This document shows, one piece after another, positions 52,301-55,300 of a DNA stretch of 64,000 nt. Each line of letters opens with the position of its first letter. Positions within the stretch are counted from its first letter, which is position 1. This DNA comes from Trypanosoma brucei. Lineage: Eukaryota. Position numbers: made by a program. The stretch is from NCBI GenBank assembly GCA_000002445.1, contig CH464491.1, positions 5,088,001 through 5,152,000 on the forward strand. The letters are read 5' to 3'.

Positions 52301-55300
52301 TGGGTGACACAAATGTTAGTGCTTGTTATACCATCTGATGAGAACTCGACTTTAACATTACCTCATACTTTCTCAATACATTCTCACTATTATCCTTCTT
52401 GTTCCACTTCTTCACAAATAGACGTTAGAATCCACCCTTAGATTTAAAATCATAGTCGACAGCTTAATCTTTTTAGTAGTATCTTTCCACTTCTATATGA
52501 AAAACAGAGCACAACATCCTTCAGTGTCTTTTTTCTGCATTCTGCTACCCTGCATTCTTTTATTTCACTCCACATTTTGTTTTTTAACCTTCCTTTTCTA
52601 CCGTCGTTTATGCGGACACCGTGGAAACTCTTTTTCCACAAAAAGTGCACTCTATCCGTGTGTGAATGTTCCTTCCATCACGCTCTTTCGTACAATGATG
52701 ACCATCCCCATGTTTTTATTTTTCACCGTTCATATTACATCTCCTCCGCTTCTTCTCTTTCTGCATTTCATTTAATAATATTCATACACCTCTCTTTCAC
52801 TCCCTGCAACTTCCTATGAGACTCATTGTCCTACTCAATACCTTACTTTCATTACACCATCACCATTTTTAAGTGTGCCTGTTTTTGGCTTAGTGCTTAC
52901 TCTCCATCAACCTTCACATAATAATAGTATATACACAATTACAACACTCTCCTATCGTTATTATTATTACAATTAAAACAATAAATTATTGCTAATATCC
53001 ATGTAATAAGCAAAATAATCCAAAATAAAATAGCACCCTATTTTCATATCCTTTTACGCTACAACTTTACATACATAAACTACAGTCACACACATTTTAT
53101 TAAAATTACAAATTTCCAAATGTTCACTAATTTGTGCATTGTTTTTCAAAAACAATTTAAATATATGAAATTTTCACAAATTTCATAAAATTGAGCGAAA
53201 AACTTTTACCAATAATTCTTAAAAATGTTATTCTAGAAGCAAAACAGCAAGAGAAAAAGGGGCTTTAATTACAAAAGAATACCACCCTGTGGTATTCAAA
53301 GTTTTGCCGTCTTTGCATTCTGTTTTTTTGATTGTTTTTCAACATACACGCTGAACGTGCACTTTTTACATCTCCTTTGAGTTTAAAAACGAAACAGTTT
53401 TTCTCCTTTTTTCCCCCTATATCCTTCTTTATTGTATTCTTTCTCTTTCTATTCTATGCAGAGAGTTATGCATTTAGAGTTAGCTATCGATTTCTTTAAG
53501 TCATAGTTTTTTAGCACTATGTCTCCTCCTCTTTTTGCCTGATATTGTTCTAAGATAACACGAAGGTGGGTTATATCTTTAATATACCATGCGATTTCGG
53601 CCATCTCAGTATTGTGCCATGGTCCAGTATGCCGTCTCATCGTGGGAAGCCAAGAGCCAGCAGCGTTCCTTTCATGGGGGACACTGCTGTGCTCCGGCAA
53701 CGGCATCATACAGCACAGGGATCAGCAGCGTCTTGCTGGGACACCGTTCTTCATTTGTCGGTCCCTGGGCACGTGCCAGCGTGCAATCAGCAGTATCATC
53801 CGCACTAAGATGCTGCTGTCCGGTGATGTGGAAGAGAATCCCGGCCCGTCGTTGCGCGGGATGCAGTGAAACTGCACCTGGCTATCTCAAGGAAAGAGAT
53901 TAGCACTCCACAAAACCCTTGTTGATGAGCGGATCGCCTTTTGTCTGTTGAGCGAGACAAGGATGACGCCTGGAGAGGCGGCTTGCTTTAGCGTTGCTGG
54001 CTACCAATATCACGGAATAGCTCGTAACTGCAAAGGAGGTGGTGTATCAATACTAGTGAGGGGGGACCTACCAGTCGAGACCGGTATGGCCGTTGTTGGT
54101 CGCATTGAACAAGTTCATGCAACAATTCACCCTGCACGTGGAACGGCGCTGACTTTCACGTCGGCATACATCCCACCAAAACATACCTTCACGGCAACTG
54201 ACCTAGATACGCTTCTGACAACTGACGGTGCCCAGCTCATCGGTGCAGACGCTAACGCACAGGCGTTGACATGGGATCGCGCGAGCGCAGTAAATACCAA
54301 GGGTGAAACCCTCACACAGTGATGCATTGACAACCAGCTTCTGGTCTGCAACACTGGTGAGTGCACCAGGTACGCGCGCCACCACGGGGAGTCCACCCCT
54401 GATGTGACGCTGTCAAGGAATTGCACAGTGTACACGTGGACATCGCTGTATTCTCCCGATAGCGATCACCATCACATATTTTTCGACGTTATCGTTGGAG
54501 ACGACACAGATGCACTGAGTTGCCCGCGGCTTCAAACACCCATGTACGCATGGCTAAAAGCTGACTGGAGGAATTTCCGTCTCAAGGTTGACGAGCTCTG
54601 CAGGAAAATTAATAGAGAGAAGAACGTCAACACCCTGGAACAGAAATTGAGCTCCGCCATCCGCATTGCGACGAAGGTCTCCGTCCCCCGTGGCTGCAGA
54701 GCAACGCCACCACATTGGACATCTGAGCTCGCGAAACTCGATGAATAGATCGCTGTATGCGGACCCTCCCACCGAAGGGAAAAGTTTATAGCCACGCATA
54801 AGCAGATCCTGGACCGTACCACAAAGAAGAAATGGAGCACGCTATGCTCCAGACTTGCGGTGTCAGACCGCTGCAGTTGGCACATTGTCAAGAAGGTATA
54901 TCCGCCACGACCACTAACCACACCGGCGGTACTTGTTGATAACGCGGCCATCACGGACTACCGTCAAGCTGAGAGGTTCATTAAACTGTACTCGTCCCGC
55001 GCAAGAAGGCACCCCGACTCACACCCACCGACACCCATAAAGACGACAGCGAGTGAGTTTAGTCCCACCACGATGGCTGAACTACGAAGATCGATCAAAC
55101 TGCTACCGAGTGGATCCGCAGCCGGACCTGATTGCTTATACAACGATTCACTACAACATCTCGGTAGAACAGCGCTGAATGTTGTTCCGAGGCTATTCAA
55201 TGAGAGCCTACGAAAGGGAGTCGTGCCGCCTGCATGGAAGACTGGTGTTATCATCCCCATCCTGAAGGCCGGAAAAAAGGCGGAGGACCTCGATTCTTAC

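What the first reader, a model, noticed from the sequence alone, without database searches (positions are those of the whole stretch)
53225..53600. ingi insertion coincides with truncation of a VSG: only the GPI-signal end and 3'UTR of the VSG survive
The 5' end of the plus-strand ingi at about 53570 abuts the remnant C-terminus of a minus-strand VSG (…NTTGWYSFVIKAPFF…). No N-terminal VSG sequence is found on the other side of the element (58840-59400). I could not identify a clean target-site duplication, so the event may be an insertion with an associated deletion or recombination and not a simple retroposition.
Basis: seen in the sequence. Interest (0 to 1): 0.5.

Follow-up and report, generated by a model that had tools for sequence, protein, structure and literature searches.

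The report
Retrotransposon-truncated silent VSG gene remnant
In a Trypanosoma brucei surface-antigen gene array, a full-length but dead ingi retrotransposon sits exactly where a silent VSG gene breaks off; the element probably inserted normally and a later recombination through it removed the front of the gene, which is an ordinary kind of subtelomeric rearrangement.

Summary
The window is a T. b. brucei TREU927 chromosome 11 VSG array.

- **The element.** A full-length, coding-dead ingi lies on the + strand at 53587-58841.
- **The VSG remnant.** The DNA abutting the ingi 5' end is minus-strand VSG coding sequence, 53586 down to the stop at 53228-53230. That is about 119 codons: the end of the N-terminal domain, the whole C-terminal domain and the GPI signal, so more survives than the GPI-signal end alone. 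VSG 3'UTR homology follows.
- **No duplication.** There is no 12-bp target-site duplication (3/12 matches, as expected by chance).
- **Missing gene front.** No N-terminal VSG sequence is detectable on the other side. Only about 595 bp separate the ingi tail from the next 70-bp repeat, so about 2-2.6 kb is missing.

Two new facts point to a mechanism. The 5' flank carries the same GGxTxAT motif, 12 nt upstream of the element, as five reference ingis, so the 5' junction looks like a normal insertion. The first 57 nt of the element are 23% diverged against 3% for the rest.

Most likely the ingi inserted normally at the boundary between the two VSG domains. Homologous recombination or conversion through the ingi body then replaced everything to its right. 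This kind of event is known. Interest is low.

The parts
53061..53227 (-). VSG 3'UTR and downstream homology of the remnant. The conserved 16-mer is degenerate.
   Evidence: blastn finds 67-81% identity to other VSG 3' ends in the window. Alignment A1. No 16-mer match at 3 or fewer mismatches in this stretch.
53228..53586 (-). VSG pseudogene remnant of about 119 codons: the last residues of the N-terminal domain, the C-terminal domain and the GPI signal. Stop TAA at 53228-53230. It has 2 in-frame stops and at least 1 frameshift, and GC is 33%.
   Evidence: Translations. phmmer hit to VSG fragment P0139 over query 3-120, E=1.2e-7. Shuffle control. GC content.
53568..53574 (+). GGGTTAT, matching the GGxTxAT motif found directly upstream of the 12-nt TSD in five reference ingi copies. 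It is presumed to be the endonuclease target pattern.
   Evidence: Flank comparison. Background frequency of the motif at a fixed position is 0.0005 (GG.T.AT) to 0.011 (GG...A.).
53575..53586 (+). ATCTTTAATATA, the 12 nt that should be the 5' copy of the target-site duplication. On the minus strand it encodes YIKD of the VSG.
53587..58841 (+). Full-length Tbingi non-LTR retrotransposon (5255 bp), antisense to the VSGs. It is coding-dead, with 5 in-frame stops and 2 frameshifts relative to an intact 1656-aa ORF.
   Evidence: blastn to L001-L007. Junction alignments. tblastn with the intact ORF. RVT_1 and RNase_H homologues.
53587..53643 (+). The 5'-terminal 57 nt of the ingi (the Pr77 / 79-bp signature region) are abnormally diverged: 14 differences from consensus (23%), 10 of them GC-to-AT. 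The rest of the element differs by 3.1%.
   Evidence: (binomial P=3e-9). The five reference copies have 0-2 differences in the same stretch.
58820..58841 (+). ingi 3' end and A-rich tail: CACGAAGAAAAAACGTAAAAAA. The references have ...GAAGAAAATTCCAAAAAAAAAA.
58842..59436 (.). 3' flank of the ingi: 595 bp of unique sequence, GC 39%. It has no detectable VSG, ingi or other homology and no copy of the TSD.
59437..59480 (-). Degenerate 70-bp repeat, which marks the upstream boundary of a VSG cassette.
   Evidence: nhmmer with a model of the window's 70-bp repeats, E=6.9e-5. Sensitive blastn matches seven other 70-bp repeats, E down to 1.8e-5.

Best explanation
An ingi retrotransposon inserted by ordinary target-primed reverse transcription into the coding region of a silent array VSG. 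It is antisense to the gene and sits at the boundary between the N-terminal and C-terminal domains. The target was GGGTTAT|ATCTTTAATATA.

Later, a homologous-recombination event used the ingi body as its substrate. This was either an unequal crossover with a second ingi in the same orientation lying upstream in the cassette, or a gene conversion or ectopic exchange with an ingi elsewhere.

The present element is therefore a hybrid. Its 5' flank and first 57 nt come from the old insertion. The rest of the body, the tail and the 3' flank come from another copy. The result is loss of the TSD and of about 2-2.6 kb: the VSG N-terminal domain and most of the spacer. What remains is a decaying VSG 3' fragment.

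Shown: the junctions, the motif, the absence of a TSD, the divergence step and the missing DNA. Inferred: the order of events and the nature of the recombination partner.
For: - VSG homology runs to the last base before the ingi.
- The 5' flank has GGGTTAT exactly 12 nt upstream of the element, as in 5 of 5 reference copies. Chance at a fixed position is 0.0005-0.011.
- The 3' end has a normal ingi terminus and A-rich tail, so both junctions look like genuine retroposition junctions.
- The flanks nevertheless do not share a TSD.
- There is a sharp divergence step at nt 57: 14 differences in 57 nt against 3.1% elsewhere, P=3e-9, while the 3' terminus is not diverged.
- Only 595 bp separate the tail from the next 70-bp repeat, against 2.6-3.2 kb expected.
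- TSD-less full-length ingis are common: 2 of 5 reference copies.
- The literature states that ingi and RIME recombine and cause rearrangements in T. brucei (PMC2854126) and that Tbingi TSDs are 12 bp with a conserved upstream motif (PMC3820030).
Against: - No pre-recombination or empty-site allele could be retrieved. Every look-up of TREU927 proteins in the positional index failed, and no orthologous VSG exists in the T. equiperdum or T. b. gambiense assemblies held.
- The upstream motif was derived here from only five copies. The published consensus could not be read.
- The diverged 57 nt could be a rare Pr77 variant rather than a recombination boundary.
- No second ingi or RIME is present in the window.
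- A weak, non-significant similarity exists between the flanks, GTTAT..ATCTTT at a 12-nt offset.
Confidence: 0.5

Rival explanations
1. Simple retroposition into a VSG 3' fragment that already existed, like the ingi-free fragment at 59752-59940. The locus is old, and the TSD and flanks have since eroded through fast, AT-biased subtelomeric mutation, while gene conversion from other ingi copies kept the element body looking young.
For: - The left flank is AT-decayed: GC 33% against 40-46% for the same part of intact VSGs.
- The first 57 nt of the element are 23% diverged, mostly GC-to-AT.
- Reference copy L001 has only 8/12 TSD identity although its body is 2.6% from consensus.
- There is an 8/12 match to the TSD at a 12-nt offset.
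- tblastn extends by only about 4 bits across an empty-site reconstruction.
- VSG 3' fragments occur without ingi.
Against: - At the canonical position the TSD match is 3/12. About 7/12 would be expected even at 23% divergence of both copies, so this is roughly 2.5 sd low (own calculation).
- The offset match is not above chance (P=0.36 and 0.11).
- The 7-nt motif next to the TSD is intact.
- The right flank shows no VSG similarity, although the equally old left flank still does.
Confidence: 0.2
2. The target-site deletion happened during retroposition itself, as in L1-type insertion-associated deletions or an endonuclease-independent insertion at a double-strand break. In that case about 2 kb of VSG and spacer was lost when the ingi integrated.
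For: There is no TSD, the element is full length with a normal tail, and DNA is missing.
Against: In the standard model the second-strand break lies upstream of the first nick, so the recognition motif would be lost. Here GGGTTAT sits at exactly -19 to -13, which has a chance probability of 0.0005-0.011. The model also does not explain the divergence step at nt 57. A variant with resection of the 3'-side end before priming cannot be excluded.
Confidence: 0.12
3. Assembly artefact. Two nearly identical ingi copies that flank the VSG N-terminal region were collapsed into one in the Sanger-era TREU927 chromosome 11 assembly, which would create a false hybrid element and a false deletion.
For: The signature seen here, with both junctions canonical, mismatched flanks and the intervening DNA missing, is what a repeat collapse produces. 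The window comes from the TREU927 reference.
Against: ingi copies differ by 3-5%, which clone-based finishing normally resolves. The element has normal length, 5255 bp, with no internal discontinuity. Collapse does not explain the diverged 57 nt. This could not be tested at read level.
Confidence: 0.08

Closest known systems
Tbingi (ingi4 subclade) non-LTR retrotransposon of Trypanosoma brucei
   Same: Length of 5.25 kb. 93-96% identity to other copies. The 5' Pr77 / 79-bp signature, the APE-RT-RNase H ORF, the A-rich tail, and a conserved motif 12 nt upstream.
   Different: It lacks the 12-bp TSD that defines a simple insertion. Its first 57 nt are 23% diverged. Its ORF is broken.
Recombination-mediated deletions between dispersed retroelements (Alu/L1 RMDs in primates; ingi/RIME-mediated rearrangements noted for T. 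brucei in PMC2854126)
   Same: A single hybrid element with two genuine-looking junctions, non-matching flanks and loss of the intervening DNA.
   Different: The pre-recombination allele, which is the defining proof for such deletions, was not available. The inferred breakpoint, about nt 58, is unusually close to the element's 5' end.
VSG gene fragments and pseudogenes of the silent subtelomeric archive (about two-thirds of array VSGs are pseudogenes, PMC3467770; about 80% in PMC12975129)
   Same: A C-terminal domain, GPI signal and 3'UTR fragment on the array strand, decayed by stops and frameshifts and followed by a 70-bp repeat.
   Different: Its upstream boundary coincides to the base with a retroelement junction. 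The neighbouring fragment at 59752-59940 has no such boundary.
L1-type retrotransposition-associated target-site deletion
   Same: No TSD, and target DNA is missing at a full-length LINE insertion.
   Different: The endonuclease target motif is retained at the canonical distance on the 5' side. The standard deletion model does not predict this.

Membership tests
Tbingi non-LTR retrotransposon | About 5.2 kb element colinear with known ingi copies | tested here: met
   53591-58830/58841 aligns end to end with L001, L002 and L003 at 94.8-95.9% identity. Lengths are 5255 against 5241-5265.
Tbingi non-LTR retrotransposon | Conserved 5' 77-79-nt signature (Pr77) starting CCCTGGCG | tested here: met
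   Present at 53587 as CCATGCG..., but with 14 differences from consensus in 57 nt. No Rfam family matched.
Tbingi non-LTR retrotransposon | Single long ORF with endonuclease, RT and RNase H domains | tested here: met
   tblastn with an intact 1656-aa ingi ORF covers residues 1-1656 at 90-93% identity, with 5 stops and 2 frameshifts. Homologues carry PF00078, PF00075 and PF14529. It is a degenerate copy, not autonomous.
Tbingi non-LTR retrotransposon | A-rich 3' tail | tested here: met
   GAAGAAAAAACGTAAAAAA ends at 58841. The references have GAAGAAAATTCC(A)9-11.
Tbingi non-LTR retrotransposon | 12-bp target-site duplication (PMC3820030, citing Bringaud 2004) | tested here: not met
   3/12 at the canonical position, P=0.65. 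Relaxed and gapped searches are at chance level. Among the reference copies, 3 of 5 have a TSD and 2 of 5 do not.
Tbingi non-LTR retrotransposon | Conserved pattern preceding the 5' TSD (endonuclease site) | tested here: met
   GGGTTAT at -19 to -13. The five references show GGATGAT, GGATGAA, GGAAAAT, GGATTAT and (shifted by 1) GGCTCAC. The published consensus itself could not be read, so this test is against an empirical n=5 pattern.
Variant surface glycoprotein gene | C-terminal domain with GPI-anchor signal, homologous to known VSGs | tested here: met
   phmmer E=1.2e-7 to VSG fragment P0139 over 118 residues, with ...GKDGKT(L/T)NTTG..SF(V)I... conserved. The Pfam Trypan_glycop_C model did not hit. 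That model is weak, scoring only 21 bits even on the intact neighbouring VSG.
Variant surface glycoprotein gene | N-terminal domain (Pfam VSG_B or Trypan_glycop) and signal peptide | tested here: not met
   Nothing is detectable in 58842-59437 in any frame. The neighbouring VSGs score 210-263 bits for VSG_B.
Variant surface glycoprotein gene | 3'UTR with the conserved 16-mer TGATATATTTTAACAC | tested here: inconclusive
   3'UTR homology of 76-81% to other VSG 3' ends, but no 16-mer at 3 or fewer mismatches. A degenerate copy (TTCATATATTTAAATTG) aligns at that position.
Retroelement recombination-mediated deletion / hybrid element | Both junctions canonical but flanks not sharing a TSD | tested here: met
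Retroelement recombination-mediated deletion / hybrid element | Internal breakpoint where the element's ancestry changes | tested here: inconclusive
   There is a divergence step at nt 57 (P=3e-9). With only five reference copies, no phylogenetic breakpoint test was possible.
Retroelement recombination-mediated deletion / hybrid element | Pre-recombination allele with two elements flanking the deleted DNA | not testable with these tools
   No T. brucei genome DNA search is available. Exact-protein look-ups failed or returned only TREU927.

The most novel reading that the evidence does not exclude
The 57-nt 'old' terminus attached to a 'young' body would mean that ingi bodies are continually refreshed by gene conversion, while their extreme ends and flanks age. 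It would also mean that conversion tracts can run out of the element into neighbouring VSG DNA. Dispersed ingis would then act as portable homology blocks that delete, swap and fragment silent VSG cassettes, creating the C-terminal VSG fragments available for mosaic gene formation. Ages of ingi copies estimated from their bodies would be systematically too low.
Probability: 0.2. Interest if true: 0.4.

Novelty: new member of a known kind. Interest (0 to 1): 0.2.

Why it matters
The value is mostly curatorial. The work gives base-accurate boundaries for one ingi and one VSG fragment in the TREU927 chromosome 11 array, and it shows how the fragment was probably made.

More broadly, it is one concrete and testable example of a retroelement acting as a recombination substrate that reshapes the silent VSG archive. 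Ingi/RIME recombination is already accepted for T. brucei (PMC2854126). If the divergence step at the element's 5' end turned out to be general, it could serve as a marker for finding conversion tracts and hybrid elements genome-wide. On its own the locus changes no current view.

Tried and rejected
- **Cross-strain empty site.** Exact-protein look-ups of the neighbouring VSGs failed. Homologues of VSG 60490-62010 are only TREU927 itself plus partial cDNA-derived VSGs at 74-85% identity. Cluster members of the other window VSGs carry no genomic position outside TREU927. P0139 could not be located.
- **Rfam.** No HDV-like or other RNA family matched in 53000-59800.
- **Pfam.** No VSG or RT domain on the remnant or on all six frames of the right flank.
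- **Word-indexed protein search.** The search with the empty-site reconstruction found no candidates.
- **Spurious hits.** P0138 and P0140, which hit the remnant, are bacterial multi-repeat proteins matching one short motif many times. They were rejected as spurious.
- **Tandem element upstream.** CACGAAGG at 53559-53566 resembles the ingi 3' end. This was rejected because those bases encode the conserved HLR of the VSG and no A-tail follows.
- **Right flank as a degenerate ingi-related element.** Two short colinear matches to ingi positions 57154-57171 and 57621-57645 exist. There is no protein-level support (E>=1), so this was not adopted.
- **A 17-nt 'long TSD'.** GTTAT[GTAAGT]ATCTTT is not above chance.
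- **Published motif.** The published Tbingi upstream consensus (Bringaud 2004 and 2009) could not be read.
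Full report
**Context.** The window is a subtelomeric array of silent VSG genes, all on the minus strand. It comes from Trypanosoma brucei brucei TREU927 chromosome 11.
- Five window ORFs are exact matches to the consecutive GenBank proteins EAN80674-EAN80678, on a 5,261,801-bp contig.
- The VSG at 60490-62010 is 100% identical to another TREU927 VSG on the same contig.
- An HMM built from the window's own 70-bp repeats finds a repeat upstream of each cassette.
- The conserved 3'UTR 16-mer is found 12 times, against 1.4 expected by chance.
- The two VSGs flanking the finding carry Pfam VSG_B plus Trypan_glycop_C.

**The ingi.**
- No other ingi or RIME is present in the window. 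I therefore fetched independent copies through the protein encoded at 54860-57400: six T. equiperdum loci and one T. b. gambiense locus.
- blastn shows colinear identity of 94.8-95.9% from 53591 to 58830 or 58841.
- Junction alignments against five copies that have 5' flanks show that all references start CCCTGGCGATGCC. The window reads CCATGCGATTTC, so the element starts at 53587 (53586 if read without a gap). The A-rich tail ends at 58841.
- The element is 5255 bp, which is full length. Relative to an intact 1656-aa ORF it has 5 in-frame stops and 2 frameshifts.

**The VSG remnant.**
- Minus-strand translation gives ...ECKDGKTLNTTGWYSFVIKAPFSLAVLLLE*, with the stop at 53228-53230.
- DNA from 53061 to 53341 is 67-81% identical to other VSG 3' ends.
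- The important question was whether the 245 bp between that block and the ingi are VSG as well. They are.
  - A stitched 121-residue translation (53589->53228) searched against 1.84 billion representative proteins hit P0139. Its sequence is plainly a VSG fragment (...GKDGKTTNTTGSNSF...). The match covers query residues 3-120, with E=1.2e-7.
  - Two better-scoring hits are bacterial proteins with 4-8 repeats of one short motif. They are spurious.
  - Locally, P0139 residues 236-379 score 99 against the remnant, a value reached by 0 of 1000 shuffles.
- The alignment includes YIKD, which is encoded by the 12 nt directly next to the ingi. VSG coding sequence therefore runs to the junction.
- By comparison with the neighbouring VSGs (VSG_B ends at residues 361-370; the C-terminal domain starts near 405), the break lies at the boundary between the N-terminal and C-terminal domains.
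- About 350-390 codons are missing.
- The remnant is AT-decayed: GC is 33%, against 40-46% for the same segment of intact VSGs.

**The other side of the element.**
- From 58842 there are 595 bp of unique sequence. A degenerate 70-bp repeat follows at 59437-59480 (nhmmer E=6.9e-5; blastn to seven other repeats).
- The 595 bp show no similarity to the window's VSGs or to residues 1-235 of P0139 (P=0.17-0.51).
- They match no Pfam family in six frames, nothing in the ingi protein, and no other DNA in the window or the fetched loci.
- In six annotated cassettes the 70-bp repeat lies 1.5-2.1 kb upstream of the VSG start. The expected distance from the repeat to the break point is therefore 2.6-3.2 kb.
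- The observed distance is 0.6 kb, so about 2-2.6 kb is absent.

**Target-site duplication.**
- Tbingi and RIME have a constant 12-bp TSD preceded by a conserved motif (PMC3820030).
- Here the 5' 12-mer is ATCTTTAATATA and the 3' flank starts TGTTATGTAAGT. That is 3/12 matches, P=0.65 against random genomic pairs.
- The best relaxed match is 8/12 at a 12-nt offset (P=0.36). The best gapped local alignment has P=0.11.
- The 12-mer does not recur to the right of the element.
- Among the five reference copies one has a perfect TSD, one has 11/12 with an indel, one has 8/12, and two have none. TSD-less full-length ingis are therefore not unusual.

**Two new observations that bear on mechanism.**
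- First, all five reference copies carry GG(A)T(x)A(T) immediately upstream of the 12-nt TSD position. The window has GGGTTAT at exactly -19 to -13. That motif occurs at 0.05% of random positions in its strict form and at 1.1% in its loosest form. The 5' junction therefore looks like an authentic endonuclease-targeted insertion.
- Second, the element's first 57 nt carry 14 differences from the consensus, 10 of them GC-to-AT. The rest of the element differs by 3.1% (binomial P=3e-9). The next-densest 60-nt bin has 6 differences. The five references have 0-2 differences in this stretch. The 3' terminus of the element is not diverged.

**Interpretation.** Three things together fit a hybrid element: a canonical 5' junction, a canonical 3' terminus with a non-matching flank, and an ancestry step about 58 nt inside the element.
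- On this reading an old insertion into the VSG coding region was later involved in homologous recombination with another ingi. That could have been an unequal crossover with a same-orientation copy upstream in the cassette, or a conversion or ectopic exchange.
- The event replaced everything from about nt 58 rightwards, including the 3' flank, and so removed the N-terminal domain and the spacer.
- The T. b. gambiense genome paper states that ingi and RIME sequences recombine and cause rearrangements (PMC2854126).
- I give this reading 0.5.

**Rivals.**
- *Simple insertion into a pre-existing fragment, with later erosion of the TSD (0.2).* The decay of the left flank favours it, as do the 8/12 TSD of reference L001 and the ingi-free VSG fragment at 59752-59940. 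Against it are the 3/12 match beside an intact motif and the VSG-free right flank.
- *Deletion during integration (0.12).* It does not predict retention of the motif at the canonical distance, and it does not explain the 57-nt step.
- *Collapse of two ingis in the assembly (0.08).* It would give the same signature and could not be checked at read level.

**What could not be done.** No empty-site or pre-recombination allele could be retrieved. The published upstream consensus could not be read, so the motif test rests on five copies.

**Verdict.** It is a new, well-delimited instance of a known kind. Interest is low (0.2).

Noticed in passing
window 59639-59940 (minus strand): A second short VSG 3' fragment: C-terminal domain pieces ...GDDCKGGCKVEETGENKKC... 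/ ...NSFVIETQF / NPILLAFLLIA* at 59752-59935, with a 16-mer (2 mismatches) at 59639-59654. It is 81% identical in DNA to the remnant next to the ingi. It lies between the 3' region of VSG 60490-62010 and the degenerate 70-bp repeat, and no retroelement adjoins it.
   Followed up: partly
window 53587-53643: The first 57 nt of the ingi (the Pr77 promoter / ribozyme region) are 23% diverged from five reference copies, mostly by GC-to-AT changes. The remaining 5.2 kb is 3% diverged. I could not tell whether this variant exists in other ingi, RIME or DIRE copies.
   Followed up: partly
window 58971-58988 and 59350-59374: Two short matches in the ingi's 3' flank (17/18 and 21/25), in the same orientation and colinear with positions 57154-57171 and 57621-57645 of the ingi itself. 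A third 17/18 match lies at 59256-59273 in the opposite orientation. These could be traces of a very degenerate ingi-related element or chance; there is no protein-level support.
   Followed up: partly
window 47543-48592 and 62222-63334 (minus strand): Pairs of short ORFs annotated as hexosyltransferase fragments (Tb11.1840 and Tb11.0740) lie between the 70-bp repeat and the VSG start in two cassettes. Their protein ends are nearly identical, which suggests a duplicated glycosyltransferase pseudogene carried within some VSG cassettes.
   Followed up: no
loci L003 (5' end 3993, 3' end 9229) and L006 (2486, 7737): Two of five full-length T. equiperdum ingi copies also lack a recognisable 12-bp TSD, and L003 also lacks a poly(A) run. 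TSD-less ingis appear to be common.
   Followed up: partly
window 53460-53565 (minus-strand translation HLRVILEQYQAKRGGDIVLKNYDLKK): This VSG-derived peptide gives multi-repeat phmmer hits (E=1.6e-11 and 1.1e-6) to large bacterial proteins with 4-8 repeats of ...DH.RI..VLEQADKRGGGDL.TKAY.LK... This is judged a chance motif resemblance amplified by the repeats.
   Followed up: partly
locus L001 1-1667 and 4513-9767: In T. equiperdum, another full-length ingi lies about 2.8 kb downstream of a VSG gene (VSG_B plus Trypan_glycop_C). This shows that ingi-VSG adjacency recurs in other arrays.
   Followed up: no
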